Assembly: GCA_046351535.1 (NCBI GenBank)
Contig: JAXLYG010000005.1
Location: 37,334-101,333 of the forward strand
From: Polyangiales bacterium
GTDB taxonomy: Bacteria > Myxococcota_A > Polyangia > Polyangiales > Ga0077539
Direction of reading: 5' to 3'
DNA: 64,000 nucleotides
The position numbers and the translations under genes are program-made. Position 1 is the stretch's first letter. Each line of letters starts with the position of its first letter. Of the stretch, positions 37,076-52,225 are shown one piece after another. The notes beneath the pieces were generated by a model that saw only the letters and a list, made by a program, of their open reading frames with translations, was not told the DNA's origin and made no database searches.

Positions 37076-37163
37076 GGGGAGAAAGTGAGTCGGACCGTAG
37101 TATCCCGACGTTTTCGTGTCCACCCCGCAGACCGCGTGAATCTGGCACCATCGGCGTCCCGCC

Positions 37164-39947
37164 ATGCGACTTATCAGTGCCTCCGCGGTCCTCACGCTCG
37201 CGCTCTCGCCCTTCGGTTGCACAGACACATCGACGGGTACGCCCGCGGACTCGGGCCTCGACGCGCCGCGCGACACCCTCGACGAACGCCCCACGCTGCC
37301 TCCGTACGTCGACCCCTACGCGTGCCCGAGCACCCGCGACGAGCTGCCCGCCCTCGATGATCCGCTCGACGCGGCGGAGGCGCGCGCGGGGACCATCCGC
37401 AACGAGGCCGAGCTCATCGGCGGAGAGGGCGCAGCGGGCCGCGTCGGTCACCTCAAGATCTACAACAGCCGCGTGCGCTTCGTGGTGCAGGGCCGCGTCG
37501 GCACGACGGGGTCATCGCGCGCCATCGGATACAGCCTCTACGGCGGCAACGTGATCGACGCCGACCGCGCGAGGCCCCGCGGCGCGCAGGGTCAAGACGT
37601 GTTCCGCGAGACCTTTCCTGCGTTCGCGTTCCGCGTGTCGACGGTCGACGAGGTGGCCGTCGCGTGCGACGGATCGAACGGACGCCCCGCGGCGATCCGC
37701 GTGGTGGGCGTCGACGCGCCGAGCCGCATCCTCGGGATCCTCGACAACCTCTCGCGCGAGCAGGGTGTGCGGATGGTCACCCACTACGTGCTCCGCCCCG
37801 ACAGCGACGTGCTCGAGATCATCACCGAGGCGCAGTCGCTCGACGGCTGGTCGATCAGCAACTCGGCCGCGGGAGACTTCCTCGGCTTCGGCTCGGCGCT
37901 CTCGCTCTTCAACGGCGAGACGGGCTTCGGCAACATCGCGCGCGCCTCGATGCCGCTCACCTGGCTCGCCGCCGTGAGCGACCCCGGCGAGGGAGACCGC
38001 CACGTCTCCTACGCCATCGCGCCCTCCGAGGGACCCATGAGCGTCCCCGTCGTCGACGCGTCGGGCACCGTGGGCCTCTACAACGCCGTCAACGCCGCGA
38101 AGGGAGCGCCCGCGCGCTTCACCCGCTACCTCTCCGTCGGCGGCGGCGACGTGGCCTCCGCCGTCGAGCCCATCCTCCGCGCGCGCCACGAGCCCTTCGG
38201 CGTCGTCACCGGACGCACCACTTCGAACGCCCTCGTCTACGCCTACCGCGACGCGTACACCGTCGGCGCCAACGCGCGCTCCATCGCCCGCGCGCAGATG
38301 GACGGCTCGTATCGCATGGCGCTCCCGCCGGGCACCTACGCGATCACCGCCGTCGACGAGGGCGTCACGCGCGCCGCGCCCGTGATGGTCACCGTGACCG
38401 CCGACGGGATGGCCACGGCGAATCCCACCACCGGGTCGTCGGGCACGATCGCGCTCGACCTCGGCGTGCTCGACGCGATGGGAGCCCGCGTGCGCGCGCC
38501 CGTGAAGGTCAGCCTCCGCGGCGTCGACGTCGAGGCCCCCGACGACGCGATGGGCGAGCTCGAAGGCGAGCGCGAGTCCTTCGGTCTGCACCGCGCGATC
38601 TTCAGCCTCACGGGGCAGGAGCGCTACGCCGTGAAGCCCGGCCGCTACCGCGCGACCGTCTCACGCGGCGACGAGTACGACGTGGCCACCGCCGAGGTGA
38701 CCGTGGCCGCGGGCGGAGAGGCCACGCTGCGCGCCGACGTGCGACGCGTGGTCGACACCGCGGGGATGATCTCCGTCGACCTGCACCAGCACACGGTGGG
38801 CAGCATCGACTCGCCGCGCGCCCTCTGCGGACGCGTGCTCGAGAACGTCGCCGAGGGGCTCGAGTTCGCGGCCACGACCGACCACGACAACGTCACCGAC
38901 TTCGCGCCGTGCATCCGGTCGCAGAACCTCGGCGCGTGGTTCAACGCGATGCGCGGCAACGAGATCTCCGTCGTGGGCCTCGGCCACTTCAACGCGTACC
39001 CGCTCGTGGTCGACCCCGCCGATCCCTTCGCGCTCATCGGCGCGCAGTACTGGGCGGGCCTCGACGCGCAGCAGCTCTTCGACAAGGTGCGCCGCGAGGC
39101 GGGCGGTCCGCTCCTCCACGTGTCGCACCCGCGCTCCAACGGCTTCAAGGGGTACTTCACGTCGATCAACCTCGACCCCGTGAACCTCACGGGCCGCGTC
39201 GCCCTCGCGCGCAACTGGGAGGCGATGGAGGTCAACGAGTCCTTCGGCACGCCCGAGCAGTACACCGCGGCGTCTGACGCGACGCTCTCGGCGCTCGCGC
39301 GGAGAGACGCCTCGGCGATCCCGACGCTGCGCGACTTCTTCTCGTTCATCTCGCGCGGCGATCACGTCTGCGCGCTCGGCAACAGCGACACGCACGGCCG
39401 CAACAACGGCTCGGGGTGGCCGCACAACCTGGTGATGGTCGGCGAAGACCGCCCCGATCAGGTGACGCCCGCGGCGATCACCACGGCGATCCGCGCGCAG
39501 CGGGTGCTCGTCTCGAACGGCATCGTGGTGCGCATCCGGTCGGGCGGCGCGGTGCACATGGGCGCGGGCGACGTCGTGCGCGCCACGGGCGGAACCGTCG
39601 ACCTCGAGCTCGACGTGCAGGCCGCGCCGTGGGTCGACGTGCGCTCGCTGGTGCTCTTCGAAAACGGCCGTCCGCTCGCGCTCACGAGCGACGGACGCGG
39701 CGGCCTCGACGCTTCGAACACGGTCGGCGCCGCGGGCTGGGGCATCGCGCTCGACGCGACGTCACCGGGTCGCTCGGGCGTCACGCGGCTGCGCGCCACG
39801 GTGCATCTGCGACCGACGCGCGACAGCCACTACCTCGCGCTCGCGCGCGGCGGATCGCTCGCGCCCGTCGGGGCAGGGGACGCCTTCGGTTACACCAACC
39901 CCGTCTACGTCGACGTCGACGGGAACGGCTGGCAGCCCGCGATGTGA
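37164..39947 (+). CDS. Large lipoprotein with a C-terminal PHP/CehA-McbA-type metallohydrolase domain.
   Basis: A lipobox (LSPFGC) is followed by PHP motifs (VDLHQHTVGS…ATTDHDNV…GNSDTHG) in a 927-aa protein. Confidence 0.75.
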   Translation: MRLISASAVLTLALSPFGCTDTSTGTPADSGLDAPRDTLDERPTLPPYVDPYACPSTRDELPALDDPLDAAEARAGTIRNEAELIGGEGAAGRVGHLKIYNSRVRFVVQGRVGTTGSSRAIGYSLYGGNVIDADRARPRGAQGQDVFRETFPAFAFRVSTVDEVAVACDGSNGRPAAIRVVGVDAPSRILGILDNLSREQGVRMVTHYVLRPDSDVLEIITEAQSLDGWSISNSAAGDFLGFGSALSLFNGETGFGNIARASMPLTWLAAVSDPGEGDRHVSYAIAPSEGPMSVPVVDASGTVGLYNAVNAAKGAPARFTRYLSVGGGDVASAVEPILRARHEPFGVVTGRTTSNALVYAYRDAYTVGANARSIARAQMDGSYRMALPPGTYAITAVDEGVTRAAPVMVTVTADGMATANPTTGSSGTIALDLGVLDAMGARVRAPVKVSLRGVDVEAPDDAMGELEGERESFGLHRAIFSLTGQERYAVKPGRYRATVSRGDEYDVATAEVTVAAGGEATLRADVRRVVDTAGMISVDLHQHTVGSIDSPRALCGRVLENVAEGLEFAATTDHDNVTDFAPCIRSQNLGAWFNAMRGNEISVVGLGHFNAYPLVVDPADPFALIGAQYWAGLDAQQLFDKVRREAGGPLLHVSHPRSNGFKGYFTSINLDPVNLTGRVALARNWEAMEVNESFGTPEQYTAASDATLSALARRDASAIPTLRDFFSFISRGDHVCALGNSDTHGRNNGSGWPHNLVMVGEDRPDQVTPAAITTAIRAQRVLVSNGIVVRIRSGGAVHMGAGDVVRATGGTVDLELDVQAAPWVDVRSLVLFENGRPLALTSDGRGGLDASNTVGAAGWGIALDATSPGRSGVTRLRATVHLRPTRDSHYLALARGGSLAPVGAGDAFGYTNPVYVDVDGNGWQPAM

Positions 39948-40576: not shown

Positions 40577-41383
40577 CTACGGAGCGGGCGGCGGCTCCGC
40601 GGGCGGCGGCTCCGCGGCGTTCTCTTCGACCTCGGTGGTGAGCGCGGCCTCGAGCCACCGGGCGAGGCGCGCGCTCTGCTGCGCGTGCAGCGTGGCGCGG
40701 GCGCGGATGCTCTGCACGTAGCGCCGCGCGGCGGCGAACTCGGCGGCGTACGCGGGCGCCTCGGCGCGGGCCTCGCCGTCGTCGCTCAACACCGGCGGGA
40801 GCTCCCTCACGAGGAGCGACGCGCAGCGCTGCGTGGCCTCGGCGTCGCGGAGCACGCGGTCGATCACGGCGAGGAGCGGCGCGAGCCCCGGGGCCTCGGC
40901 GTTGGGGGTGAGCGTGAGCGACACGTCGCGCTCGACGTCGTGAAAGCGGTCGTCGATGGCGGACAGCGCGGCGCGCTCGCTGGCCGCGGGCGCGAGCACG
41001 GCGGCGAGCCACGCGCGCTCCTTCTCCTCGTCGGGGGGAGCGCCCTCGGGGCCGCGGTCGAAGTGGACCCGCACGCGCGTCACGCCGGCGCCGCGGAGCG
41101 CGTCCCGCAGCGCGTTCTCGAGGTCGGGCGCCTCCGCGTTGGGGAGGCGACCGAGCGCGCGAGAGAGGTCGGCCATGAGGTCCGCGCGGCGGAGGTCGAC
41201 GTCGGCGAAGGCGTGCTGACACCCGCGAACGGCTGAGAAATACGAGTCCGCGTGGGGTCGCTGCGTCACCACGAGCTGCTCGCGGTTCACGCGCGTGACG
41301 CGCGAGCCCGCGAAGGGATCAGAGCTGCAACTGCACAGCGCAGCGGCGCACGCAAGCGCTGAGAATGCGTCGCGGAGGTTCAT
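40577..41383 (-). CDS. Hypothetical lipoprotein.
   Basis: It has a signal peptide with a lipobox (MNLRDAFSALACAAALCSCSS), and the ATG at 41381-41383 is confirmed. The C-terminus is Pro/Glu-rich. Confidence 0.5.
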   Translation of the reverse strand: MNLRDAFSALACAAALCSCSSDPFAGSRVTRVNREQLVVTQRPHADSYFSAVRGCQHAFADVDLRRADLMADLSRALGRLPNAEAPDLENALRDALRGAGVTRVRVHFDRGPEGAPPDEEKERAWLAAVLAPAASERAALSAIDDRFHDVERDVSLTLTPNAEAPGLAPLLAVIDRVLRDAEATQRCASLLVRELPPVLSDDGEARAEAPAYAAEFAAARRYVQSIRARATLHAQQSARLARWLEAALTTEVEENAAEPPPAEPPPAP

Positions 41384-41571
41384 CGTGCGTGACGGGGAGT
41401 ACACGCGCGACGACATCCGCGGACAACAAAATACAAGTTGGCGACAACTTCGACAGAGCCCGAAGGCTATTGAATCCAGCGGAAATCGCGAGGTGTCGGA
41501 AAGGTGCATCACACGCCCGAGCGGCGGTAGAGACGCGCCACGAACCGATCCCAGAGGACGCTGAGGAACTG

Positions 41572-43092
41572 ATGACCACGCTGCTGATCGCCGTCCCGTA
41601 CCTGACCGTGCTCCTGCTGCTGGTGCTCTATGGTCTGCACCGCAGCCAGCTCGTGTGGCTGTTGTGGAAGCACCGCACCGAGCTCCCGCCGGCTCCGCCC
41701 TGTCAGCTCCCCGAGGCCGAGCTCCCGCACGTGACCGTTCAGCTCCCGCTCTTCAACGAGCCCGACGTGCTCGAGCGCCTGCTCGAGTGTGTCGCTCGCA
41801 TCGACTACCCCCGCGACAAGTTCGAGATCCAGGTCCTCGACGACAGCACCGACGACACGCGCGAGCGCTCCAAGGCCAAGGTCGCCGACCTCGTGCGCCG
41901 CGGCATCGACGCGGTGTACATCCACCGCACCGACCGCACGGGCTACAAGGCCGGCGCGCTCGACAACGGGCTCAAGTACGCCAAGGGCTCGCTCGTCGCG
42001 GTCTTCGACGCCGACTTCCTCCCGCAGCCGTCGTTCCTCCGCACGGTGGTGCACCACTTCGCGGACCCGAAGGTGGGCTGCGTGCAGGCGCGCTGGGGCC
42101 ACCTCAACCGCGAGACCTCGATCCTCACGCGCGTGCAGGCGCTCATGCTCGACGGTCACCACATGGTCGAGAACCGCGCGCGCTTCGCGGCGGGTCGCTT
42201 CTTCAACTTCTCGGGCACCGGCGGCATCTGGCGCCGCGAGGCCATCGGCGACGCGGGCGGCTGGCAGCACGACACGCTCACCGAAGACCTCGACCTCTCG
42301 TACCGCGCGCAGACCGCGGGCTGGCGCTTCGTCTACCGCGAGGATCACGTCACCCCCGCCGAGCTCCCCGAGGAGATGGAGGCGTTCCGCGCGCAGCAGT
42401 TCCGCTGGGCCAAGGGCACCGTGCAGACCGCGCGCAAGCTCCTCTCGAAGGTGTGGAGCGCGAAGCACCTCAACCGCAACATCCGCCTCGAGGCGGTGTT
42501 CCACATGACGCCGCACTTCGCGTACCCGCTGATGATGCTGCTCGCGGTGTTCCTCCTCCCGATGCTGCTCATCATGCCCGTGAGCGATCCGGTCTCGCTG
42601 CTCCTCGTCGACATCCCCCTCATGGTCGGCTCGACGGGCTCGCTCGCGACCTTCTACATGGTCGCCGAGCGCGCGCAGGGCCGCACCGCCCTCGGCGCCC
42701 TCCGCCGCCTCCCCTGGCTCCTCGCCATCGGCGCGGGCATGTCTCCGTACCTCACGCGCGCCGTGTGGGAGGGCCTCCAGGCCGAGACCGGCGAGTTCGT
42801 CCGCACGCCCAAGAAGGGCCAGAGCGCGCGCTCGGGCCGCTACCGCGCCCGCACGATCCTCCCCGTCATCGAGATCGTGCTCCTCCTCGAGAGCATCGTG
42901 TCGGTGTACACCGCGCTCACGACGGGCCACTACATCGCCGCGCCCTTCGCGCTCCTCTACGTGATGGGCTTCGGCTACGTCTCGTACTCGGTGATCACCG
43001 AGCGCATGGCCGCCGTCGCCGCCGCCGAAGCGCGCCGCCCGCAGCCCGTCGCCGCCACCGCCGAAGAGGCGACCGAGTCCGTCGCGGCCTGA
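41572..43092 (+). CDS. Processive family-2 glycosyltransferase (cellulose/chitin-synthase-like, with multiple TM helices).
   Basis: It has the D, DxD, D and QxxRW motifs (QVLDDSTDDT, VFDADF, TEDLDLSYR, QQFRWAKG) and C-terminal TM helices. A GAGGA ribosome-binding site lies 7 nt upstream of the ATG at 41572. Confidence 0.85.
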   Translation: MTTLLIAVPYLTVLLLLVLYGLHRSQLVWLLWKHRTELPPAPPCQLPEAELPHVTVQLPLFNEPDVLERLLECVARIDYPRDKFEIQVLDDSTDDTRERSKAKVADLVRRGIDAVYIHRTDRTGYKAGALDNGLKYAKGSLVAVFDADFLPQPSFLRTVVHHFADPKVGCVQARWGHLNRETSILTRVQALMLDGHHMVENRARFAAGRFFNFSGTGGIWRREAIGDAGGWQHDTLTEDLDLSYRAQTAGWRFVYREDHVTPAELPEEMEAFRAQQFRWAKGTVQTARKLLSKVWSAKHLNRNIRLEAVFHMTPHFAYPLMMLLAVFLLPMLLIMPVSDPVSLLLVDIPLMVGSTGSLATFYMVAERAQGRTALGALRRLPWLLAIGAGMSPYLTRAVWEGLQAETGEFVRTPKKGQSARSGRYRARTILPVIEIVLLLESIVSVYTALTTGHYIAAPFALLYVMGFGYVSYSVITERMAAVAAAEARRPQPVAATAEEATESVAA

Positions 43093-43287
43093 TCGCCGCT
43101 CCTCTCCTCCCGCCTCGTCCGCCTCCCAGCACTCCCCCACCACCAGCCCCTACGCAGACGACGGCGCGTAGGCGCCGCACGCGCACGCGTTCGCCCGCAG
43201 CGTCGACACACCCGCGCGCGCGCATGTACGGACGTCGGTACGCCCACGTACCGACATCCGCACACGGCGCGGACCGCTGACAGACTG

Positions 43288-44511
43288 TTACGCGACGGCT
43301 TCGGCGAGCGCTGCGACGAGCGCGGGGACATCGGCCTGCGCGACGCCGCACAGCGCCACGCGCAGCGCGCCCGACTGGGGAACGGTGAACACCCCGCGGG
43401 CCTTGAGCTTCTCCGCGGCGGACTTCACGTCGCGCGCGAACACGGTGACGAAGAAGCCTCCGTCGTAGCGCGGATAGCGCAGCCCCGTCCCCTCGGCGGC
43501 GCGGTTGAACGCGTCGACGCGCGCCGCGAGGAGCGCCACGAGGCGCGCGCGCTCGGCGTCGACCTGCGCGCGCAGCGTCGCGTCCGAGAGGCAGCGCGCG
43601 ACGGCGTACTGACCCGCGGCGTTGCAGTTGCTCCACGTGCCGCGGCAGGCCCACGAGAGCGCGCGGCCGATGGCGTTGCGCGTGTCGGCGTCGGCGGTGC
43701 AGGCCACGAGCGCGCCGATGCGCTGGCCGTACTGCGTGAACGACTTGCTGCCCGACCACGCGAAGAGCACCGCGGCCCGCTCCGTGAGGGGCTCGAGGTG
43801 CTTGAGGAACGAGCGCTGATCCTTCGCGTACGCGAGGTAGGCCACGTCGGCGAGCACCGCCGTCGGCACCTTCGCGGATTGCTCGCGCACGATGCCCGCG
43901 ACGGCGGTCCACTCGTCGCGGGTCATCGAGTAGCCCGTGGGGTTGTGACAGGGGTCGTTGAGAAAGACGAGCAGCCGGCCCTGCTTCGCCGCGGTCTCGG
44001 CGAGCGTGCGTTCGAAGGCCGCGAGGTCGATGCCGCCGCGCTCGGAGAAGTTGTTGAACGTCACGACGCCGCGCTCGTGCTCGTCGGCCAGCGTCGCGTA
44101 CGGCCCCCAGTAGAACGACGACGTCACCATCGACTGCTTGTGCTCGAGGAACACCGACAGCGCGTGGCGCAGCGCGCCCGTTCCGCCCGGCGTCGAGCAG
44201 GCCACGGCCTGGTCCGCGAGCGACGTTCCGCCGAGGAGATCCTTCGTCACCGCGGAGAGGAACTCCGGCGCGCCCGCGATGGGCGCGTAGGCCGCGGCCT
44301 TGAGCGCGGGCACCTCGCGCAGCGCGGTCACCACCGAGGGGAGCACCGCGAGCGTGCCGTCGTCTTCGAGGAGCGCGCCGACCGTCGCGTTGATGACCTT
44401 CTCCCCCGTCGCGCGGCGCTGCGTGGCCTCGCGGTTGAGGGCGAAGATGGGGTCGTCTCCAGGGCGGCTCGCGTTGCGTTCAGGGAGGAGGTTCACGGCC
44501 GAATTGATTGC
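43288..44511 (-). CDS. Class I/II (aspartate/aromatic-type) aminotransferase. The start is either GTG near 44511 or ATG at 44601.
   Basis: It has an AAT-like fold with PLP-Lys context (…SGSKSFTQYGQRIG…) and is about 400 aa. Confidence 0.85.
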   Translation of the reverse strand, partial: AINSAVNLLPERNASRPGDDPIFALNREATQRRATGEKVINATVGALLEDDGTLAVLPSVVTALREVPALKAAAYAPIAGAPEFLSAVTKDLLGGTSLADQAVACSTPGGTGALRHALSVFLEHKQSMVTSSFYWGPYATLADEHERGVVTFNNFSERGGIDLAAFERTLAETAAKQGRLLVFLNDPCHNPTGYSMTRDEWTAVAGIVREQSAKVPTAVLADVAYLAYAKDQRSFLKHLEPLTERAAVLFAWSGSKSFTQYGQRIGALVACTADADTRNAIGRALSWACRGTWSNCNAAGQYAVARCLSDATLRAQVDAERARLVALLAARVDAFNRAAEGTGLRYPRYDGGFFVTVFARDVKSAAEKLKARGVFTVPQSGALRVALCGVAQADVPALVAALAEAVA

Positions 44512-44551
44512 CACAGAACGCGCGAGCCTGTCACTACGCGCGATGCGGCGA

Positions 44552-47422
44552 TCAGTGCGCCAATCCTGCGCGCAGCGTCTCCAGGGCGCTCCGCCGCGCA
44601 CCGGATGGCATCTGCGAGATGGCGCGGTCGAGCTCCTCGACGGCCTGCGAGGGCGCGCCGAGCATCGCCAGCGTCTCGGCCATGCGCACGTGGAGCTCGG
44701 GGGCTTCTTCCCCCGTCTCGCGCGCCACGGAGAGCGCCTCGGTGTAGCGCGAGAGGGCCCTGCGTCCGTCGCGCCGCCGGGCCGCGAGGTCGCCGAGCTT
44801 CACGAGCGCGCGAAAGCGCTCGGCCACGGGCGGAGAGAGCTCGAGGGCCGCAGTGAGGTCCGCCTCGGCGCTCCCCGGATCGCGCTGCGACGCGAGCATC
44901 GCGCGCGTGAGATAGAGCCTCGCGAGGAGCGTGCGCGGCGTCGGATCGCGGGGGTCGAAGCCCACGGCGAGCTCGCCCTCACGGAGCGCGCGGGCGCGGT
45001 CTCCCTGCCGCTCCGCGAGCACCATGGCGCGCGTGTGGGTCACGGCCTCGCGGCGCGACTCGCTCTCGTCGAGGAGGCGCATCCACGCGCCCCCCTGCGA
45101 GCTGTCGCGCACGAGCCCCGCGAGCGGCAGATCATCGACGCGCGCGAGGAGCGCGAACACGTCGTCCGTCGCGTCGCGGTAGAGCAGCGAGGGCGCGCGG
45201 AACTCCAGCGAGAGGTCCGACGCGCGCAGCAGCGGAGCGTCTCCTGCCACGGCGCGCACGCCGCCGACGCCCGCGACGAAGCGCGCGAAGAGGGCGGCCT
45301 GGTCGTTCACGCCCGCGACGCGCAGGAGCCGCGACACCGTGGGGTCCTCCGCGCGACGGAGGAACGTGTCGAGGTCCAACGATCCGTCGCGCAGCCCCAC
45401 GAGGAGGTAGTCCTGCCCCGGCGTGATCTCGACCATCGTCGCGCGCGGAAACACCTCGCGGAACGTCGCCACGATCGACGCCACCACCTCGGCGCTCGTG
45501 CTGTACGCGTGGAACCACTGCCCGAACGCGCCCCCCGGTCGCAGCCTCCGCCTCGCCGCTTCGAAGGCCTCGCGCGTGAAGAGGTCGCTCATGCCCGCGA
45601 CCCACGGGTTCGACGGCTCGCTCACGATCGCGTCGTACGTGCGAGATGTTCCGCGGAGGTAGTGCGCCGCGTCGGCCCTCACCACGCGCACCCGCGCATC
45701 GTCGAGCACGTGGTGGTTGGCGCGCGCGAAGTCCGTCCTCGCGGCGTCGACAACCGCACCCACGAGCTCCGCCACTTCGACCGAGCGAACCCCCGGAACC
45801 GAGCGCGCGGCGTCGGCGGTCATCCCGCTGCCGAGCCCCACCACGAGCACGTCGCCCGTCGCGCGGGCCATCGCCACGGGGAGGATCCCCACGAGCGTCT
45901 GCGTCGTCGCGTCTCCGAGGCTCGTCGCGTCGACCTTGCCGTTGATCTGCAACAGCACGTTGCCCTCGTCGTCGCGCCGCAGCGCCACGGTGGCCTCGGG
46001 GTCGTCGCGTCGCCACGCCAGCCGCCCGAGCTCCACGTCGCGCGAACCCGCGTACAGAAAGGGCCCGCGCAGCATCGCGGCGGCGTCGCCCCGCAGCGTC
46101 ACGCGCCCCGCGACGAGCGCCACCACGGCCGCCGCCACGACCGCCATCGGACGCGAGCGCACCAGCGCCACGGCCACCGCGAGCACCACGCCGACCGAGA
46201 GCGCCGCGCGTTCGAAGCCGAGGCCCGGCATCACCGCGAAGGTCATCGCGAGCGCACCCGCGACGTTGCCCGCGGCCATCGCGCCGAGCGTGCGCCCGTT
46301 GGCCTCTCCGTCGCTCGCGCCCGGCGTCAGCGCGCGCGCAGCGAACGCCATCGCGGCGCCCACGCACGCGACCACGGGCAGGGCCACCACCACGAGCGCC
46401 CCATACGCCGAGAGCCACAGCACGCGCTGCGACGGAGCACCGTGCGCGAGCAGCCGCTCGGCGAACTCGGGCATCGCCGCGACGAGCGGCGTCGAGAGCA
46501 CCACGGCGACGACGGCCGCCACCGTGAGCCATCCGAGGATCACGCGCGCGCCCTTCGCGTCGCAGCGCGAGACGCGACGCAGCGAGGCGAGCTCTCCGAT
46601 CGCGAGGGCCGTGACGTGCGCCGCGAGGGCCGCCGCGAAGGCGAACGCGCTCGGACCGAAGGCCAGCGACGACGACCGCGCGAGCAGCACCTGCCACGCC
46701 GTCGAGGCCACGCCGAGGCACGCGAGCGCCACCACGACGGCGAGGTCTTCGCGGCCACCATCGGCCTGTTTTTCAGCGCTTTCGAGAGCCTTCGAGACCT
46801 GCGCCTCCGCTGCGAAGCGCGACGCCGCGAGGGCCGTCAGCGCGTACACCGCGGCCACGCCCGCGAGCGTGTTCGCCACGCCCACCGCGGGACACACCAC
46901 GAAGGTCGTCACGAGCGCCGCGAAGGCCGCGCCGAGGGAGCTCGCACCGCCCGCGAGCGCTGTTCCTGCACCCGCGCCGCGCGCCATCAGCGAGACCGCC
47001 GCGGGGTACGCGCTCCCCGCGAGCGCACCGGGAATCGCCGTCAGCGCGAGCGCCACCACGAGCCGCGCGAGGTCGCCCGCCCACTGCGCCCGCTCCGAGA
47101 GACCCACGAGCGCGCGCGCGAAGAGCGACGTCACAGACCCCGGCGCGAGCGCACCCACGAGCGCCCAGAGCGCGAGACCTCCGTGCGATGCGACGAGCGC
47201 GCGACGCGGCGAGAGAACGCCCCGCGCGAGGAGCCGCGAAGACCACCACGCCCCCAGACCGAGCGCGCCGAGCACGCCCGCGAGGGTCCCCGTCTGCGAG
47301 ATCGCAGAGCTGCCGAGCATGGGGCGCAGCACGCGCGCGCCGAGGGCCTCGCCCGCGAGCGTCGCGCCGCCGCTGAGGGCCATGAGTGCGGCGATGAGGC
47401 GCGCGGTCGGACGGAGTCGCAT
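44552..47422 (-). CDS. Second giant fusion protein (MFS-like membrane domain, spermidine-synthase-like domain and TPR-like tail), a paralogue of the gene at 31731..35381.
   Basis: It has the same architecture and shares the motifs VVGLGSGMT and YDAIVSEPSNPWVAGMSDLFT, 956 aa in all. Confidence 0.85.
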   Translation of the reverse strand: MRLRPTARLIAALMALSGGATLAGEALGARVLRPMLGSSAISQTGTLAGVLGALGLGAWWSSRLLARGVLSPRRALVASHGGLALWALVGALAPGSVTSLFARALVGLSERAQWAGDLARLVVALALTAIPGALAGSAYPAAVSLMARGAGAGTALAGGASSLGAAFAALVTTFVVCPAVGVANTLAGVAAVYALTALAASRFAAEAQVSKALESAEKQADGGREDLAVVVALACLGVASTAWQVLLARSSSLAFGPSAFAFAAALAAHVTALAIGELASLRRVSRCDAKGARVILGWLTVAAVVAVVLSTPLVAAMPEFAERLLAHGAPSQRVLWLSAYGALVVVALPVVACVGAAMAFAARALTPGASDGEANGRTLGAMAAGNVAGALAMTFAVMPGLGFERAALSVGVVLAVAVALVRSRPMAVVAAAVVALVAGRVTLRGDAAAMLRGPFLYAGSRDVELGRLAWRRDDPEATVALRRDDEGNVLLQINGKVDATSLGDATTQTLVGILPVAMARATGDVLVVGLGSGMTADAARSVPGVRSVEVAELVGAVVDAARTDFARANHHVLDDARVRVVRADAAHYLRGTSRTYDAIVSEPSNPWVAGMSDLFTREAFEAARRRLRPGGAFGQWFHAYSTSAEVVASIVATFREVFPRATMVEITPGQDYLLVGLRDGSLDLDTFLRRAEDPTVSRLLRVAGVNDQAALFARFVAGVGGVRAVAGDAPLLRASDLSLEFRAPSLLYRDATDDVFALLARVDDLPLAGLVRDSSQGGAWMRLLDESESRREAVTHTRAMVLAERQGDRARALREGELAVGFDPRDPTPRTLLARLYLTRAMLASQRDPGSAEADLTAALELSPPVAERFRALVKLGDLAARRRDGRRALSRYTEALSVARETGEEAPELHVRMAETLAMLGAPSQAVEELDRAISQMPSGARRSALETLRAGLAH

Positions 47423-47444
47423 CTCGGCGAGAACGCCCCGAACG

Positions 47445-48062
47445 CTACGCGCGCTTCCGAGGCGAGAAGGGAATCAGCGACGAGGGCGCGCTCAGCGCCG
47501 TCACGATCGACTCGATCTGCGGCGCCACGCGGTCTCGCATCGCGGCGTCGTGCTGCGCGAGGCGCGTAAGGTGCTCCAGCGCGTCGAGCATGGCGCGCTG
47601 CCGACGGCCCTCGATCACCGCGTGCGCGATGAGCGCCACCACGACGGCCGCCACCGCGCCCGCGAGCCCCAGGAGCAGGAGCTTCGGGAGCACGTCGTCG
47701 AAGATCACCCGCAGCGCGAAGAGCGCGAGGAGCACCGCCCCGAGCGCCCACGCGGCCACGCGCCCCGAGCCCTCGCGTCGCGCGCCGCGGACCGCGCGGC
47801 TCACGATGTCATCGAAGGCCGCGCCGGCCTTCACGTCGGCGGTGAGCGCGGGCGCGGGCTCCGCGGGCGCGCCACGCCCGAGAAGCTCGGACAGCGGCGC
47901 GTTCAAGGGCGGGAGCTCGGGCTCCGCGGTCTTCACGGCCTCGCGCGTCTCCGTCGAAGAGAGCACCGCGATGGCGGCCTCGGAGGTCTGCGTCGGAGCG
48001 GGTGTTGAAGAGTCCACGACGTGCTCGGCGCGTACCGTACCGCAGCGACCGCGAAAACTCAC
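47445..48062 (-). CDS. Hypothetical small membrane protein with 2 TM helices; the start is uncertain.
   Basis: It has two hydrophobic helices (WALGAVLLALFALRVIF and LLLLGLAGAVAAVVVALIAHAVI) and sits between the ABC ATPase and the fusion gene with gaps of about 22 nt. Confidence 0.45.
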   Translation of the reverse strand: MSFRGRCGTVRAEHVVDSSTPAPTQTSEAAIAVLSSTETREAVKTAEPELPPLNAPLSELLGRGAPAEPAPALTADVKAGAAFDDIVSRAVRGARREGSGRVAAWALGAVLLALFALRVIFDDVLPKLLLLGLAGAVAAVVVALIAHAVIEGRRQRAMLDALEHLTRLAQHDAAMRDRVAPQIESIVTALSAPSSLIPFSPRKRA

Positions 48063-48084
48063 CAGATCATCGGCGGTCGACGCG

Positions 48085-48759
48085 CTACGCGCCCGTGCGC
48101 ACGGAGGACTTCACCTTCCCCCGCTCCAGCGTGATGCGCACGTCGGCGACGCGCTCGGCGAAGGGACGGTCGTGCGTGACCACCACCACCACGCGCTTGC
48201 GCTCCCGCGCGCCCTTCACGGCCTTGATGAGCCGCTCCGTGGCGTTGGCGTCGAGGCCCGTCGTGGGCTCGTCGAAGAGCAGCAGCGACGGGTCGTGAAG
48301 CTCCGCCCGCGCCAGGGCCAGCCGCTGGAGCTGCCCGCGCGAATACGTCCTCGCGGGCCTGTCCGCGAACTCCGTGAGCCCCACGGCGCGCAGCGACTCC
48401 TCGATGCGGCTCTCCGCCGACGGAAGATCATGGAGCGTCGCCATGAGCTTCAGAGACTCCCGCGCCGTGAGGTCGGGGTACACCATCGCCTCGTGGCCCA
48501 CGAGCCCGATGGCCGCGCGCACCTCCGCGCGATCCTCGGGGAGCTCGTACTCGCCGTAGATCACCCGGCCCGCCGTGGGCCGCACCAGCGTCGCCAGCAC
48601 CAGGAGCAGCGTGCTCTTGCCCGCGCCGTTGCCGCCCTCGACCGAGCACACGTCGCCCGCGCGAAACTCCAGCGTCACCCCGGCGAGCGCCCTCGTGGCG
48701 CCGTACACCCGCGTGAGCTTCTCGACCCGCACCACATCAAAAAACGCTCTCTCGGCCAT
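48085..48759 (-). CDS. ABC transporter ATP-binding protein, small and CcmA-like in size.
   Basis: It has Walker A (GGNGAGKST), the ABC signature (YSRGQLQRLALA), Walker B (LLLFDEPTTGLD) and an H-loop (THD). Confidence 0.85.
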   Translation of the reverse strand: MAERAFFDVVRVEKLTRVYGATRALAGVTLEFRAGDVCSVEGGNGAGKSTLLLVLATLVRPTAGRVIYGEYELPEDRAEVRAAIGLVGHEAMVYPDLTARESLKLMATLHDLPSAESRIEESLRAVGLTEFADRPARTYSRGQLQRLALARAELHDPSLLLFDEPTTGLDANATERLIKAVKGARERKRVVVVVTHDRPFAERVADVRITLERGKVKSSVRTGA

Positions 48760-48845
48760 CGGCAGGGGCCAACCAATACCCCATCTCACACGCCCACCGC
48801 ACGCTCTTGCGAACGCGCACCGCCTGCCGCATAAACGCCGCCCTG

Positions 48846-49319
48846 ATGACCACCACCGTCCAGTGCATCAAATGCAACGAGGAGAAGCCCGCCCTCGCGA
48901 CCCCGCCCTTCCGCGCCGGGACGCGGCTCGCCGACCTCGGCGTCGAGATCCAGCAGAAGATCTGCGCCCCCTGCTACCGCGACTGGATCAACATGTCGGT
49001 CAAGCTCGTGAACGAGATGCGACTCGACACGACCGATCCCCGCGGCCAGCAGCTCTGGCTCACGCAGATGAAGCTCTTCCTCAACCTCGACGGAGGCTCC
49101 GCGGACCCCTGGTCGCGCCACCTCGACAAGCCCGTCGTGATCGAGACCGTCGCGGGCGTCCGCACGCGCGCCACCCTCCTCGGCGCCACCGCCGACACCC
49201 TCACCCTCGCGGATTTCGACGGCGGAACCATCCCCGACGGATTCGCGGTCTCGACCGGCGCGCGCGGCTCGGCCACCATCGCCCGCGACGCGGTCAAGAC
49301 CCTCGAGCCCGCTGCGTGA
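48846..49319 (+). CDS. YggX-like Fe(2+)-trafficking / oxidative-damage-protection domain protein with a C-terminal extension of about 75 aa.
   Basis: The N-terminal 85 aa align with YggX (MTTTVQCIKCNEEKPAL…WINMSVKLVNEMRLD… versus MSRTIFCTFLQREAEG…WQHKQTMLINEKKLN…). Confidence 0.65.
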   Translation: MTTTVQCIKCNEEKPALATPPFRAGTRLADLGVEIQQKICAPCYRDWINMSVKLVNEMRLDTTDPRGQQLWLTQMKLFLNLDGGSADPWSRHLDKPVVIETVAGVRTRATLLGATADTLTLADFDGGTIPDGFAVSTGARGSATIARDAVKTLEPAA

Positions 49320-50227
49320 CCGAGCGCACCGCACCGCCCACCGTCATCTTCGCAACGCCCCGAAAGCTCCCGAAGCCCTCGACCGTCCACGGACGCGTCG
49401 TCGTGCTCGACATCGCCTTCGCCGCCGACGGGACGGGACACAGCTTCGAGAAGGTCACCGCACCCTTTCTCAAGGGCCTCGGCGACCGCCTCGCGGCCTG
49501 GGTCGACCACCACGACCACGCGCTCCACGCGAGCTTCCGCGACGACCCCCGCTTCGTGCTCGCCACGAAGGCCGTCCACGGCGCCTGCCCCGAAATGGTC
49601 ACCCCCGAGCTCGTCGCCCGCATCGGACGCGTCGACACCATCGTGTGTCACACCGACCTCGACGGCCTCTACGCCGCCGCCCGCTGGATCCTCGGCGGAC
49701 GCGACCCCTACCCCGGCGCCGAGGCCGACGCGCGCGCCGTCGACACCCGCATCGGAGAGCCCTCTCCCCGCGCCACCGCCCTCGACCGCGCCCTGCGCCT
49801 GCGCGGACGCGACGAGACCTTCCTCGCCCGCGTGGTGCGCATGCTCATCGGACGCGACGACGACGGGGCCATCACCGACGAGGTCCGCGACGCCGCGCGC
49901 GAGTACGCCGAGGTCGAGAACAACACGAAGCGCCTCGCCGACACGGGCTACATCGCGCACGGCGACGTCGTCGTGTGCGACGCCACCAACGTCCCGCCGC
50001 GGGAGTTCGACAAGACCGACCTGCTCCTCCTCGGGCAGACCCGGGCCCGCGTCTCGATCGTGCTCGACGCGCAGAACGTCACCCTCGCCGCGGCCTTCGA
50101 CTCGGGCCTCAACTTCCTCACGCTCCTCGGCGTGAGCGGGGGAATGCCCACGAGGGTCTCGGTGCCCCGATCGCGCTACGACGAGGTCCGCAAGGCCCTC
50201 TCCACCGCAGCCCTCTGGCGCGACTGA
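49316..50227 (+). CDS. Hypothetical protein.
   Basis: The frame is protein-like, and the GTG start overlaps the upstream stop as GTGA. There is no recognisable domain. Confidence 0.5.
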   Translation: MTERTAPPTVIFATPRKLPKPSTVHGRVVVLDIAFAADGTGHSFEKVTAPFLKGLGDRLAAWVDHHDHALHASFRDDPRFVLATKAVHGACPEMVTPELVARIGRVDTIVCHTDLDGLYAAARWILGGRDPYPGAEADARAVDTRIGEPSPRATALDRALRLRGRDETFLARVVRMLIGRDDDGAITDEVRDAAREYAEVENNTKRLADTGYIAHGDVVVCDATNVPPREFDKTDLLLLGQTRARVSIVLDAQNVTLAAAFDSGLNFLTLLGVSGGMPTRVSVPRSRYDEVRKALSTAALWRD

Positions 50228-50279
50228 ACGAAGTGTATCTCCGCGGGTGCATCACCGATATACTCGCGCAACCCCGTTG

Positions 50280-51455
50280 ATGGCAGAGCGCTTCATCCGC
50301 TGCCAGCTCTGCGGCATCCCGCACCCCGCGGACGTGCGCGAGTGCCCCATTCACCGCAAGCCCATCGTGGCTGCGGCACGGATGGACGTGCGCCCTTCGG
50401 CACCCCCCACGATCCCGCCGCCGCCTCTCCCAACGCGCGTGGTGACACCCCCGCCGTTGCCTTCGGCGCGCGCGCAGGCGTCGCCCGCGCTGCTGGTGGG
50501 CAAGCTCCTCGCGGGCCGCTACCGCGTGACGGGGGTCATCGCCTCGGGCGGAATGGGCGTGGTCTACGACGGCCTCCAGGTGGCCCTCGGGCGCCGCGTG
50601 GCGATCAAGTGTCTGCACCCGCGCTACGCCACCGACGCGTCGGCCATCGCGCGCTTTCAGAACGAAGCCATGGTCTCGGGGAGCTTCGGCCACCCCCACA
50701 TCGTCGAGGTCTTCGACCTGGGCTGGCTCGACGACGAGCGCTCGCCCTTCCTCGTGATGGAGCGCCTCGACGGAGAGACCCTCGGTCACCGTCTTCAGCG
50801 TGAAAAGAAGCTCGGCGTAGGGCTCGTGCTCACGACCGCGCGCCAGGTGCTGAGCGCCCTCGTCGCGACGCACGCGAGGAACATCCTCCACCGCGATCTC
50901 AAGCCCGACAACGTGTTCCTGGTGGCCACGCACGACGGCGGCGTGCGCGCCAAGGTGCTCGATTTCGGGCTCTCGAAGGCCATGGTGCGCGGCGACGCCG
51001 CGATGCGCCTCACCCGCAGCGGCGTGGTGATGGGAACGCCCTCGTACATGCCCCCCGAGCAGGCCACCGGAGAGCCCGACCTCGACGGCCGCGTCGACCT
51101 CTACGCCCTCGGAATGATCTTGTACGAGACGCTCACGGGCCGCCTCCCCTACACCGCGCGCACGCCCGCGGCCCTGATGATCGAGATCCGACGGACGCGC
51201 CCGCCACCGCCCCGCCTCCTCCGCCCCGACGTGCCCGCGGTGCTCGACGCGGCGGTGATGAAGGCCATCTCGCCCGACCGCACGCACCGCTTCGCCGACG
51301 CCCTCGAAATGCAGCGCGCGCTCTCGGCGCTGGCCCTCGACGACGAAGACGACCCGACGACCTTCCAGGGCCCTCCGACCACGCCCTCTCCCGCGGCCTC
51401 GGCCCCCATCGAGCCCGAGACTCAGCCCGTGCAGCACTTCGCCCGCAAGGTGTGA
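50280..51455 (+). CDS. Ser/Thr protein kinase with an N-terminal CxxC…CxxH ribbon-like motif.
   Basis: It has the Hanks motifs (VAIKCL, HRDLKPDN, DFGLSK, PPE) and an N-terminal CQLCG…CPIH motif. Confidence 0.85.
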   Translation: MAERFIRCQLCGIPHPADVRECPIHRKPIVAAARMDVRPSAPPTIPPPPLPTRVVTPPPLPSARAQASPALLVGKLLAGRYRVTGVIASGGMGVVYDGLQVALGRRVAIKCLHPRYATDASAIARFQNEAMVSGSFGHPHIVEVFDLGWLDDERSPFLVMERLDGETLGHRLQREKKLGVGLVLTTARQVLSALVATHARNILHRDLKPDNVFLVATHDGGVRAKVLDFGLSKAMVRGDAAMRLTRSGVVMGTPSYMPPEQATGEPDLDGRVDLYALGMILYETLTGRLPYTARTPAALMIEIRRTRPPPPRLLRPDVPAVLDAAVMKAISPDRTHRFADALEMQRALSALALDDEDDPTTFQGPPTTPSPAASAPIEPETQPVQHFARKV

Positions 51456-51490
51456 CGTTGTTGTAGAGTCCGCGGCCCTCAACTACCGCC

Positions 51491-52225
51491 ATGCGACGGA
51501 CGACCCCCGGGGTCTTCGCCCTCGAACCCTCGGCCTCGGTGCTCCCGTGGCCCGTCGAGGTCATCGAAGACGCGCTCTCACCACTGATCCTGCCCGAGCG
51601 CCTCGCGCGCTTCGACGCGATCGCCCGCGCGCGCCTGCGCTCCGTGGTGGTGGTGCTCGAGTCCGTGGTCGATCCCCACAACACGGCCGCCGTGCTCCGC
51701 ACCTCCGACGCGTTCGGGGTTGGTGAGATCCACCTCATCGACAGGGGCGTGAAGCCGCTCATGGCGCAGCGGATCACGAAGGGCTGCGACCGCTGGCTCG
51801 ACCTGCACCTCCACCACGACTCGACGGCCTGCGCGAGGGGCTTGAAAAACAGGGGTTTCGAGGTCTACGTGGCCGACGCGCGCGCGACGAAGACGCTCGA
51901 CGAGGTGGCCGCGCGGCCCGACGTGGCGATGGTGTTCGGCAACGAGCACGAGGGCGCGAGCGCCGAGATGCGCGCCGAGGCGAGCGGAACCTTCTCGATC
52001 CCGATGCGCGGCATGGTCGAGAGCCTCAACGTGTCGGTGGCGGCGGGCATCGCGATCCACGCGGTGACGCGGGGACGCGCGGGTGACCTCGGCGAGCGCG
52101 AGACGCGAGCCCTCCGAGCGCGCTTCCTGATCGAGAGCGTCCGCGAGCACGAGATGGTGATCGAGCGCCACCTCCGCGAGCGCGAGACGGAGCGAGAGCG
52201 CCACCTCCGCGAGCCCCCCGGCTGA
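51491..52225 (+). CDS. SpoU/TrmH-family RNA 2'-O-methyltransferase.
   Basis: It has the SPOUT motifs (VVVLESVVDPHNTAAVLRTSDAFGV; MVFGNEHEGAS; MRGMVESLNVSVAAGIA). Confidence 0.8.
   Translation: MRRTTPGVFALEPSASVLPWPVEVIEDALSPLILPERLARFDAIARARLRSVVVVLESVVDPHNTAAVLRTSDAFGVGEIHLIDRGVKPLMAQRITKGCDRWLDLHLHHDSTACARGLKNRGFEVYVADARATKTLDEVAARPDVAMVFGNEHEGASAEMRAEASGTFSIPMRGMVESLNVSVAAGIAIHAVTRGRAGDLGERETRALRARFLIESVREHEMVIERHLRERETERERHLREPPG

What the first reader, a model, noticed from the sequence alone, without database searches (positions are those of the whole stretch)
43288..48759. Tight minus-strand operon of an ABC ATPase, a 2-TM protein, a giant MFS/spermidine-synthase-like/TPR fusion and an aminotransferase
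Four genes run head-to-tail on the minus strand with gaps of about 22 nt or less. They are an ABC ATP-binding protein (48085-48759), a small 2-TM protein, a 956-aa fusion (polytopic transporter-like domain, aminopropyltransferase-fold domain and TPR tail) and a class I/II aminotransferase (43288-~44511). An amino-group-handling enzyme is thus physically coupled to a membrane-embedded SpeE-like domain and an ATPase. That looks like a dedicated membrane-associated synthesis or export module for an unknown amine or polyamine-like product rather than ordinary spermidine synthesis.
Basis: partly seen in the sequence, partly recalled or inferred. Interest (0 to 1): 0.7.

Follow-up and report, generated by a model that had tools for sequence, protein, structure and literature searches.

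The report
Chance neighbours around an MFS–SpeE-like fusion
The four tightly packed genes are real, but comparison with relatives shows they are three unrelated units that sit together only in this lineage; the only conserved pair is a small two-helix membrane protein and a catalogued, uncharacterised "fused MFS/spermidine-synthase" protein that lacks the residues of a true spermidine synthase.

Summary
Four minus-strand genes lie at 43288-48759 with gaps of 22, 22 and 37 nt:
- a CcmA-like ABC ATPase;
- a 2-TM protein;
- a 956-aa fusion of an MFS domain, a SpeE-fold domain and a TPR tail;
- a class I aminotransferase.

The "dedicated amine synthesis/export system" reading fails its own test of conserved neighbourhood.
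- **Aminotransferase:** it follows the fusion only in the same species (98% identity). It is absent in 21 other ortholog lineages, and its own orthologs (72-80% identity) sit in unrelated contexts.
- **ABC ATPase:** it precedes the fusion in 2 of 17 lineages. Elsewhere its orthologs keep the divergent Iron_traffic-kinase-SpoU block without the fusion. It scores as CcmA, and a CcmE gene lies 11 kb away.
- **2-TM protein:** it travels with the fusion in 16 of 17 lineages.

The parts
48085..48759 (-). CcmA-like ABC ATPase, 224 aa, with no adjacent permease. It is evolutionarily independent of the fusion and belongs with the divergent Iron_traffic-hyp-STK-SpoU block.
   Evidence: PF00005 scores 99 bits. 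TIGR01189 (ccmA) scores 135 against a cut-off of 131.6. Orthologs are named CcmA by their sources. Orthologs in L090-L093 occur without the small gene or the fusion, and L091/L092 keep the Iron_traffic/STK/SpoU synteny.
47445..48062 (-). Small 2-TM hairpin protein, 205 aa (190 aa from a later start). It is the clade-specific conserved partner of the fusion. It has a disordered Pro/Ala-rich N-terminus and the motifs EGSWR-TM1-RxxFDxxLPRLL-TM2-ExRRQxxLL.
   Evidence: It lies immediately upstream of the fusion in 16 of 17 ortholog lineages. It has no Pfam or NCBIfam family apart from a sub-threshold CcmD hit. Only 20 relatives were found among 1.84 billion representatives. The AF2 model has pLDDT 64 and shows helices at 76-96, 99-120, 126-171 and 173-191.
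46091..47422 (-). Fusion residues 1-444: a 12-TM MFS-fold domain (6+6 internal repeat) followed by a 13th TM helix.
45248..46045 (-). Fusion residues 460-725: a SpeE-fold domain (beta-hairpin N-domain plus Rossmann fold) with a non-canonical active site (T507, S532, E602, N605). The cofactor motifs are retained (G529xG531xG533, E552, D584).
44552..45088 (-). Fusion residues 779-956 plus the stop codon: a helical TPR tail.
   Evidence: Pfam TPR_2, TPR_19 and TPR_12 hits are each below their curated cut-offs. The family profile matches TPR proteins in PDB. AF2 predicts paired helices across 779-955.
43288..44514 (-). Class I (AspC/TyrB-like) PLP aminotransferase, 408 aa. It is a well-conserved, probably housekeeping gene, and is a neighbour of the fusion only in this species.
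   Evidence: PF00155 scores 119.8 bits. PRK09257 scores 145 against a cut-off of 377. PDB 3rq1 and 4emy match at E = 1e-58, followed by aromatic and aspartate aminotransferases. Homologs number 2777 at E <= 1e-40, and sources often name them aromatic-amino-acid transaminase. Orthologs at 72-80% identity lie in other contexts. It is adjacent to the fusion only in L008, L086 and L087.
43217..43271 (-). Strong hairpin with a perfect 20-bp stem in the convergent gap after the aminotransferase stop. It is a likely terminator for the unit (inferred).
   Evidence: RNA fold gives -56.9 kcal/mol and z = -3.8; none of 200 shuffles folds as well. It was picked up as a spurious miRNA-like hit by Rfam.
48760..48845 (.). 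Divergent intergenic region of 86 nt between the ABC ATPase and the Iron_traffic gene. It presumably holds the promoters (inferred).
   Evidence: Read from the sequence. Gene calls in the 98%-identical locus L088 agree. No sigma-70 consensus was found.

Best explanation
The cluster is a lineage-specific juxtaposition of three evolutionarily independent units. It may be co-transcribed.

1. **ABC ATPase.** It is catalytically intact, CcmA-like and has no adjacent permease. It belongs to a separately conserved synteny block. Its most likely role is in dispersed System I cytochrome c maturation (heme handling).
2. **Two-gene membrane module.** This is the only conserved linkage: a 2-TM hairpin protein plus the MFS/SpeE-like/TPR fusion.
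3. **Aminotransferase.** It is a widely conserved aromatic/aspartate-type enzyme that landed downstream only in this species.

The fusion is a member of the catalogued but uncharacterised 'fused MFS/spermidine synthase' family.

**Shown.**
- The MFS fold is genuine and carries a 13th helix.
- The SpeE fold keeps its nucleotide-cofactor motifs.
- The acidic residue that makes SpeE specific for decarboxylated SAM is replaced, and so are the two catalytic aspartates.

**Inferred.**
- The domain is therefore not a spermidine synthase. It more likely uses SAM itself to methylate or alkylate an amine. SpdS-like domains without that acidic residue do this in fungal NHMT and in METTL13.
- With 13 helices and the N-terminus inside, the catalytic domain and the TPR tail face the periplasm.
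- There the TPR tail would hold a macromolecular partner or substrate.
- The MFS cavity carries conserved E25/R30 and Q244/R249. It would pass a small charged substrate, possibly the cofactor.
- The 2-TM protein would be an accessory or regulatory subunit.
For: **Independence of the units.**
- Aminotransferase: tblastn of the window proteins against 85 related loci finds it next to the fusion only in L008 (98% identity), and also in L086 and L087. In the 81%, 76%, 72%, 69%, 65% and 64% orthologs the downstream genes differ. Aminotransferase orthologs at 72-80% identity lie next to GH113 and pyruvate kinase genes, or stand alone.
- ABC ATPase: it is adjacent only in the window lineage and in L001. 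Its orthologs in L091/L092 (66% identity) keep SpoU-STK-hyp-Iron_traffic on one side and the ABC gene on the other, but are followed by a PG_binding gene. L090 (79% identity) is about 50 kb from that genome's fusion.
- CcmA reading: TIGR01189 is above its cut-off, and a CcmE gene lies at 36509-37294.
- Small protein: it is present upstream of the fusion in 16 of 17 lineages.
- Neighbour clustering found no recurrent aminotransferase, ABC or SpeD gene.

**Nature of the fusion.**
- NF037959 scores 47.5 against a cut-off of 40.
- Across 120 homologs the D101 position is S/T/A/G and never D/E, the D173 position is E/D/Q, and the D176 position is N/H/D. D584, E552 and GxGxG are (nearly) invariant.
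- Positive-inside counts support the topology.
- Precedents: NHMT and METTL13 (PMC10349129) and Pseudomonas SpeE2 (10.1101/517870).
Against: - The three gaps are short and no terminator-like site lies between the genes, so co-transcription and some lineage-specific functional coupling cannot be excluded.
- The ABC-small-fusion order is kept in two species-level lineages, and in L001 the ABC and small genes overlap.
- The periplasmic orientation rests only on helix counting and the positive-inside rule. No coordinates or experiment were available.
- A periplasmic SAM-dependent enzyme has no established bacterial precedent known to me.
- By sequence the domain is closest to true aminopropyltransferases (Thermus SpeE, 139 bits with the family profile). 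No methyltransferase of the METTL13 type was retrieved.
- Glu at the D173 position could still act as a base for aminopropyl transfer.
- The CcmA assignment is marginal: 3.4 bits above one cut-off and below that of PRK13538. No CcmB or CcmC was found in the window.
Confidence: 0.55

Rival explanations
1. All four genes form one dedicated membrane-associated pathway. The aminotransferase makes an amine precursor, the SpeE-like domain elaborates it, and the MFS domain and ABC ATPase export the polyamine-like product.
For: The genes are packed head-to-tail with gaps of 22, 22 and 37 nt and no internal terminator-like site. A strong hairpin occurs only after the aminotransferase gene. The same four-gene order is seen in three independent assemblies of the same species.
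Against: The aminotransferase is adjacent in 1 of 22 ortholog lineages and the ABC ATPase in 2 of 17. Both genes have well-conserved orthologs in unrelated contexts. Both are better conserved than the fusion, as expected of housekeeping genes. No SAM decarboxylase or other polyamine gene recurs near the family.
Confidence: 0.07
2. The fusion is a genuine membrane-bound polyamine aminopropyltransferase with a cytoplasmic catalytic domain. It is coupled to an MFS exporter for its product, like the membrane-anchored SpeE of the PRK03612 type. Glu602 replaces the catalytic Asp.
Against: All SpeE equivalog scores are far below their cut-offs: 78 against 472, 71 against 260 and 54 against 250. The dcSAM-discriminating Asp is never acidic in any of 120 homologs. 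D176 and Y76 are also replaced. The 13-TM count places the domain outside the cytoplasm, where dcSAM is not known to occur. No SpeD gene is linked.
Confidence: 0.15
3. In this sub-lineage the ABC ATPase, the 2-TM protein and the fusion assemble into an ATP-driven transporter. The MFS-like domain, the 2-TM protein or both act as its membrane partner.
For: The ABC-small-fusion order is kept in the window lineage and in the 72% relative, with the ABC and small ORFs overlapping in L001. The ATPase has no adjacent canonical permease.
Against: The small gene and the fusion occur without the ABC gene in 15 lineages, and the ABC gene occurs without them in L090-L093. MFS domains are secondary transporters with no known coupling to ABC ATPases (established knowledge). 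The ATPase scores as CcmA, and a CcmE gene is nearby.
Confidence: 0.08
4. The SpeE-like domain is a catalytically dead ligand-binding or regulatory module. It would be a pseudoenzyme that gates an MFS transporter or scaffolds partners through the TPR tail.
For: Three catalytic residues are replaced. No enzyme partner is conserved nearby. The TPR tail suggests protein-protein interaction.
Against: The cofactor-binding motifs and the replaced positions are themselves under strong conservation. D584 and G631 are invariant, and S601-E602-P603-S604-N605-P606-W607 is nearly so across 120 sequences at about 25% mean identity. This pattern is typical of an active site with altered chemistry rather than decay. 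Pseudomonas SpeE2 shows the same.
Confidence: 0.12

Closest known systems
NCBIfam NF037959 'fused MFS/spermidine synthase' (uncharacterised family, many phyla)
   Same: The architecture is the same: an MFS-type polytopic N-domain plus a SpeE-fold domain, often with a TPR tail. The score is above the curated cut-off (47.5 against 40). The family-wide motifs G-x-G-[STAG]-G-x-T and S-[EDQ]-P-S-[NHD]-P-W are shared. A second paralog lies in the same window at 31731-35381.
   Different: The window protein belongs to a narrow Polyangiales/Myxococcota sub-clade of about 38 sequences at 46-98% identity. This sub-clade has its own dedicated 2-TM partner gene, which is not seen with more distant members.
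Pseudomonas SpeE2 of the ISS locus (Beskrovnaya et al. 2020, bioRxiv 10.1101/517870)
   Same: It has an N-terminal transmembrane region plus a C-terminal SpeE-like domain. The D101, D173 and D176 positions (T. maritima numbering) are replaced, with Glu at the D173 position. The biochemical function is unknown.
   Different: SpeE2 has T, E and P at those positions, whereas this protein has S, E and N. SpeE2 is 847 aa and lies in an 11-gene host-interaction locus, which is not present here.
Fungal NHMT (AN4663) and the SpdS-like domain of human METTL13 (Batth et al. 2023, PMC10349129)
   Same: These are SpdS-fold domains in which the acidic residue of GxG(D/E)G is replaced (Ile in NHMT, Ser here). 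They act as SAM-dependent N-terminal protein methyltransferases. NHMT is anchored by an odd number (7) of TM helices and modifies signal-peptide-bearing secreted proteins in the ER.
   Different: The NHMT 7TM domain is unique to fungi and is not an MFS fold. No sequence-level link to METTL13 was found in PDB searches. No methyltransferase activity, substrate or topology has been shown for the bacterial family. This is an analogy, not membership.
Canonical polyamine aminopropyltransferases (SpeE; e.g. T. maritima 1inl, T. thermophilus 1uir, A. thaliana 6o64)
   Different: D101 is replaced by S532, D173 by E602, D176 by N605 and Y76 by T507. Equivalog HMM scores are 3-6 fold below their cut-offs. 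The domain is fused to a 13-TM domain and a TPR tail.
CcmA, the ATPase of the System I heme-handling ABC complex CcmABCD (for the ABC gene only)
   Same: TIGR01189 is above its cut-off (135 against 131.6). A GH(Q/E)-type Q-loop is present. Sources name orthologs CcmA. A CcmE-domain gene lies 11 kb away.
   Different: It is not next to ccmB or ccmC, either here or in three ortholog contexts. PRK13538 is below its cut-off. The drrA subfamily model gives a higher raw score.

Membership tests
Fused MFS/spermidine synthase (NCBIfam NF037959) | Whole-protein HMM score above the curated cut-off | tested here: met
   47.5 bits against a cut-off of 40, matching residues 256-660.
Fused MFS/spermidine synthase (NCBIfam NF037959) | N-terminal MFS-fold domain (12 TM, 6+6 pseudo-repeat) | tested here: met
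Fused MFS/spermidine synthase (NCBIfam NF037959) | C-terminal SpeE-fold (PABS) domain | tested here: met
Polyamine aminopropyltransferase (SpeE, EC 2.5.1.16 and relatives) | Equivalog HMMs above cut-off | tested here: not met
   TIGR00417 scores 54.2 against 249.6. PRK00811 scores 71.5 against 260. PRK03612 scores 78.1 against 472.
Polyamine aminopropyltransferase (SpeE, EC 2.5.1.16 and relatives) | Acidic residue in GxG(D/E)G that selects decarboxylated SAM | tested here: not met
   The motif is GLGSG, with S532 aligned to that Asp in 6o64. This position is S, T, A or G in 118 of 120 homologs and never D or E.
Polyamine aminopropyltransferase (SpeE, EC 2.5.1.16 and relatives) | Catalytic Asp pair of the D-S-x-D-P motif (T. 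maritima D173, D176) and Tyr76 | tested here: not met
   These positions hold E602, N605 and T507. The residue roles are taken from 10.1101/517870.
Polyamine aminopropyltransferase (SpeE, EC 2.5.1.16 and relatives) | Aminopropyl transfer from dcSAM to a polyamine | not testable with these tools
   This needs an enzyme assay on the purified domain.
SpdS-like N-terminal protein methyltransferases (NHMT, METTL13 C-domain) | SpdS fold with a non-acidic residue in the GxGxG motif | tested here: met
   S532 is present here and I322 in NHMT.
SpdS-like N-terminal protein methyltransferases (NHMT, METTL13 C-domain) | Detectable sequence relationship to NHMT or METTL13 | tested here: inconclusive
   METTL13 does not appear in the phmmer search of PDB with the domain alone, where all 25 matches are listed. 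It is not among the 60 rows shown of 200 matches in the profile search.
SpdS-like N-terminal protein methyltransferases (NHMT, METTL13 C-domain) | SAM-dependent methylation of a protein N-terminus | not testable with these tools
   This needs biochemistry or proteomics.
CcmA (heme ABC exporter ATPase, System I) | Equivalog HMM above cut-off | tested here: inconclusive
   TIGR01189 scores 135.0 against 131.6, which is met. NF010061 (PRK13538) scores 138.5 against 195, which is not met.
CcmA (heme ABC exporter ATPase, System I) | Encoded with ccmB and ccmC | tested here: not met
   No CcmB or CcmC was found among the ORFs of the 64-kb window that were scanned with Pfam, nor next to the orthologs in L090-L093. 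A lone CcmE gene lies 11 kb away.
   The aminotransferase is adjacent in 1 of 22 lineages, the ABC ATPase in 2 of 17 and the 2-TM protein in 16 of 17.
Class I (AspC/TyrB-like) aminotransferase | PF00155 domain with the PLP-binding lysine motif | tested here: met
   PF00155 scores 119.8 bits across residues 39-403. The SGSKSF motif is in the sequence. PRK09257 scores 145 against 377, so it is not the canonical TyrB/AspC subfamily.

The most novel reading that the evidence does not exclude
The fusion and its 2-TM partner form an extracytoplasmic, membrane-anchored SAM-dependent N-methyl (or other alkyl) transferase. It would modify exported proteins held by the TPR tail, and the MFS domain would carry the cofactor across the inner membrane. 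This would be a bacterial counterpart of the fungal ER enzyme NHMT. It would also be the first periplasm-facing SAM-dependent protein-modifying enzyme with a built-in cofactor exporter. Distant paralogs in Myxococcaceae lie directly upstream of Flp pilin genes, which hints at processed secreted proteins as substrates for the wider family.
Probability: 0.12. Interest if true: 0.8.

Novelty: new member of a known kind. Interest (0 to 1): 0.3.

Why it matters
The finding looked like a new polyamine-type pathway. The comparative evidence shows that tight spacing in a high-GC myxobacterial genome does not by itself define a system. Two of the four genes, the CcmA-like ATPase and the aminotransferase, are conserved genes with lives of their own.

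What remains is a clean description of one sub-clade of the large, uncharacterised 'fused MFS/spermidine synthase' family.
- These proteins are routinely annotated 'spermidine synthase', yet they lack the residues needed for that chemistry.
- The sub-clade has a dedicated 2-TM partner.
- The proteins probably expose their catalytic and TPR domains to the periplasm.

This gives concrete, cheap experiments for a family with no known function: topology mapping, SAM versus dcSAM binding, and partner pull-down. It also warns against inferring polyamine metabolism from this annotation.

Tried and rejected
- **CcmD reading of the small protein.** The Pfam CcmD hit scores 20.4 bits against a cut-off of 25.6 and covers only TM2 plus a basic stretch. 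I rejected it because the small gene travels with the fusion in 15 lineages that lack the ABC gene.
- **Promoter and terminator scans.** No promoters were found, and the one terminator-like site lies inside the aminotransferase gene, no more than chance. This is uninformative in 72% GC DNA.
- **Rfam scan of 42500-50500.** It returned only a spurious miRNA-like hit on the terminal hairpin. No riboswitch was found.
- **Hairpin in the fusion-aminotransferase gap.** It is not significant (z = -2.0).
- **Search for a methyltransferase relationship.** Neither the family profile nor the domain alone retrieved METTL13-type enzymes from PDB.
- **Independent topology markers.** The extra tblastn hits to the fusion near it in L015, L054, L060, L070 and L078 were checked. 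They are one small leaderless SpeE-like protein and further fused paralogs, so they gave no information.
- **AFDB search.** The library was unavailable.
- **AF2 of the small protein.** The model has pLDDT 64, which is too low for a fold search.
- **Neighbour clustering around 80 family loci.** It found no recurrent aminotransferase, ABC permease, SAM decarboxylase or other polyamine gene.
- **Literature search.** No paper in the searched library assigns a biochemical function to the bacterial family.
Full report
**Observation.** The window is about 72% G+C, so raw ORF lists are crowded with artefacts. A codon-position GC analysis picks out one reading frame per stretch. It shows four consecutive minus-strand genes between a convergent glycosyltransferase (41365-43092, +) and a divergent Iron_traffic gene (about 48846-49319, +).
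- An ABC ATPase lies at 48085-48759 (224 aa).
- A small protein lies at 47445-48062 (205 aa).
- A 956-aa protein lies at 44552-47422.
- An aminotransferase lies at 43288-44514 (408 aa).

The gaps are 22, 22 and 37 nt. ABC_tran scores 99 bits. Spermine_synth scores 43.7 bits at residues 514-667 of the large protein, which also has sub-threshold TPR hits at 870-947 and matches NF037959 'fused MFS/spermidine synthase' at 47.5 against a cut-off of 40. Aminotran_1_2 scores 119.8 bits. The only correction is that the last gap is 37 nt.

**Structure of the fusion.** An alignment of 120 homologs gave a confident AlphaFold2 model with pLDDT 94.1 and pTM 0.92.
- The two halves of the membrane domain are homologous to each other (HHalign probability 99.9%, E = 1.7e-33). 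This is the 6+6 repeat of MFS proteins.
- After the 12-helix core there is a 13th hydrophobic helix (426-444). It is present in all 120 homologs.
- The tail (779-955) consists of paired helices that match TPR proteins.

**Is it a spermidine synthase?** I aligned the protein to Arabidopsis SPDS and took residue roles from the literature.
- The Asp of GGGDG that selects decarboxylated SAM is S532.
- The catalytic Asp (T. maritima D173) is E602.
- D176 is N605.
- Tyr76 is T507.

The cofactor-binding features are kept: G529xG531xG533, E552 and D584. D584 is invariant in all 120 homologs. Across the family the first position is S, T, A or G and never acidic. The motif S-[EDQ]-P-S-[NHD]-P-W is strongly conserved. 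All SpeE equivalog models score three- to six-fold below their cut-offs.

The same kind of substitution was described for Pseudomonas SpeE2, a TM-plus-SpeE-like protein of unknown activity (10.1101/517870). SpdS-like domains that lack the acidic residue are SAM-dependent protein N-terminal methyltransferases in two known cases: fungal NHMT, which is anchored by seven TM helices, and human METTL13 (PMC10349129). I therefore infer altered chemistry on an amine nucleophile, probably with SAM rather than dcSAM. This is an analogy. No sequence link to those enzymes was found.

**Topology (inference).** I counted Lys+Arg in the loops of all 120 homologs. The N-terminus and the even-numbered loops carry 14.6, and the odd-numbered loops carry 3.8. 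This is the usual N-in orientation of MFS proteins. With a 13th helix, the SpeE-like domain and the TPR tail would lie on the periplasmic side. No coordinates or experiments were available to confirm this. A periplasmic SAM-type enzyme would be unusual, so I treat the point as a testable prediction.

**Neighbourhood conservation.** I collected 85 loci around relatives of the fusion from species-representative genomes and from assemblies. I then searched them with all the window's proteins and added further contigs.
- **Aminotransferase.** It follows the fusion only in contigs of the same species (L008, L086, L087; 98% identity). In the 81%, 76%, 72%, 69%, 65% and 64% orthologs and in all more distant ones (21 lineages with downstream DNA) it is absent within 8 kb. 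The nearest relatives instead have convergent oligopeptide-type ABC ATPase genes or a phospholipase gene.
- **ABC ATPase.** It precedes the small gene only in the window lineage and in the 72% relative, which is 2 of 17 lineages.
- **Small protein.** It is immediately upstream of the fusion in 16 of 17 ortholog lineages at 46% identity or more. It is absent from the 35-40% clade and beyond.

Clustering of all flanking ORFs found no recurrent aminotransferase, ABC component or polyamine gene.

**The ABC ATPase on its own.** It has hundreds of orthologs at 50-100% identity, and their sources often name them CcmA. It passes the TIGR01189 ccmA cut-off narrowly.
- In a 66% ortholog the divergent block SpoU-kinase-hypothetical-Iron_traffic is preserved exactly as in the window. 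There the ABC gene is followed by unrelated genes (L091, L092).
- In the genome of the 64% fusion ortholog, the ABC ortholog lies about 50 kb from that genome's fusion on the same contig.
- A third ortholog sits in yet another context.

None of these has an adjacent permease. The window also encodes a CcmE-domain protein at 36509-37294. The simplest reading is therefore a dispersed System I cytochrome c maturation gene that is unrelated to the fusion.

**The aminotransferase on its own.** It is better conserved than the fusion, with 57-93% identity over the 120 best hits and 2777 hits at E <= 1e-40. Sources commonly call it aromatic-amino-acid transaminase. Its closest solved relatives are two structural-genomics class I/II enzymes, followed by aromatic and aspartate aminotransferases. 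Orthologs at 72-80% identity lie in unrelated contexts.

**The small protein.**
- It has no curated family.
- It has only 20 relatives among 1.84 billion representative proteins.
- It has a disordered Pro/Ala-rich N-terminus.
- It has a conserved hairpin, EGSWR-TM1-RxxFDxxLPRLL-TM2-ExRRQxxLL, followed by amphipathic helices.

Basic residues flank both ends of the hairpin, so both termini are predicted to be cytoplasmic (inference). It is best seen as a clade-specific accessory subunit of the fusion.

**Conclusion.** The four genes are three evolutionary units. They are adjacent, and perhaps co-transcribed, only in this lineage. A strong hairpin follows the last gene. There is no comparative support for an aminotransferase-ATPase-SpeE pathway. 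The fusion is a new member of a known, uncharacterised family, and a second paralog lies 9 kb away in the same window. My mechanistic proposal is an outward-facing SAM-type transferase on a macromolecular amine, with the MFS domain passing a small substrate and the 2-TM protein as accessory. This is inference of moderate-to-low confidence and is directly testable.

Noticed in passing
window 31731-35381 (+): A second, larger paralog of the fused MFS/SpeE-like family (1216 aa). MFS_1 scores 36.5 against a cut-off of 33.4, and Spermine_synth scores 50.5 bits. It has the same GxGSGxT and SEPSNPW motifs and is 31% identical to the target over the C-terminal half. It lies only about 9 kb from the finding and has no small-partner homolog upstream.
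   Followed up: partly
window 36509-37294 (-): A CcmE-domain protein (89.8 bits). Its heme-binding region reads AKCPSRY. From the sequence and my own knowledge, a Cys appears to replace the usual His, as in the variant System I of Desulfovibrio and archaea. It stands alone: no CcmB, CcmC or CcmF was found among the window ORFs scanned with Pfam. It lies about 11 kb from the CcmA-like ABC gene.
   Followed up: partly
L064, L070, L073, L076, L078, L079 (Hyalangium versicolor), L081; e.g. L079 5489-11316: In Myxococcaceae, distant homologs of the fusion (29-32% identity) are followed within about 170-450 nt on the same strand by one to four tandem Flp-type pilin genes (RGQG|MTEYIIIVALIA). In the four loci checked (L064, L070, L079, L081) they are preceded divergently by a sigma-54 response regulator, with a histidine kinase as well in L079. 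L079 also has a caspase-like peptidase gene downstream. No paper in the library links Flp pilins with this family.
   Followed up: partly
window 48760-52225 and L001, L091, L092: The block Iron_traffic (YggX-like), a 300-aa hypothetical, a Ser/Thr kinase and a SpoU methylase lies divergent from the CcmA-like ABC gene. It is conserved across Polyangiales genomes whether or not the fusion is present. The 300-aa hypothetical has no Pfam family.
   Followed up: partly
L003, L011, L013-L017, L019, L021, L024, L025 (upstream of the small gene or fusion): In the clade of fusion orthologs at about 53% identity, a sigma-54-dependent response regulator (NtrC type) lies divergently upstream of the small-gene/fusion pair. 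A conserved lipoprotein-like 297-aa gene lies next to it in most of these loci. This suggests sigma-54 control of the pair in that clade. The window has instead the ABC gene at that position.
   Followed up: no
L057, L076, L078, L054: Two copies of fused MFS/SpeE-like genes lie in one locus in several Myxococcota and Acidobacteria contigs, in tandem except in L054, where they are on opposite strands. This shows that the family expands by local duplication.
   Followed up: no
window 43217-43271: A perfect 20-bp GC-rich hairpin (-57 kcal/mol, z = -3.8) lies in the convergent gap between the aminotransferase and the GT2 gene. It is a probable bidirectional terminator without a U-tract.
   Followed up: yes
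window 24847-30676 (+): A run of three large ORFs with high GC3 (about 490, 860 and 576 aa) has no Pfam family. They lie between a Ser/Thr kinase gene and the second fusion paralog.
   Followed up: no
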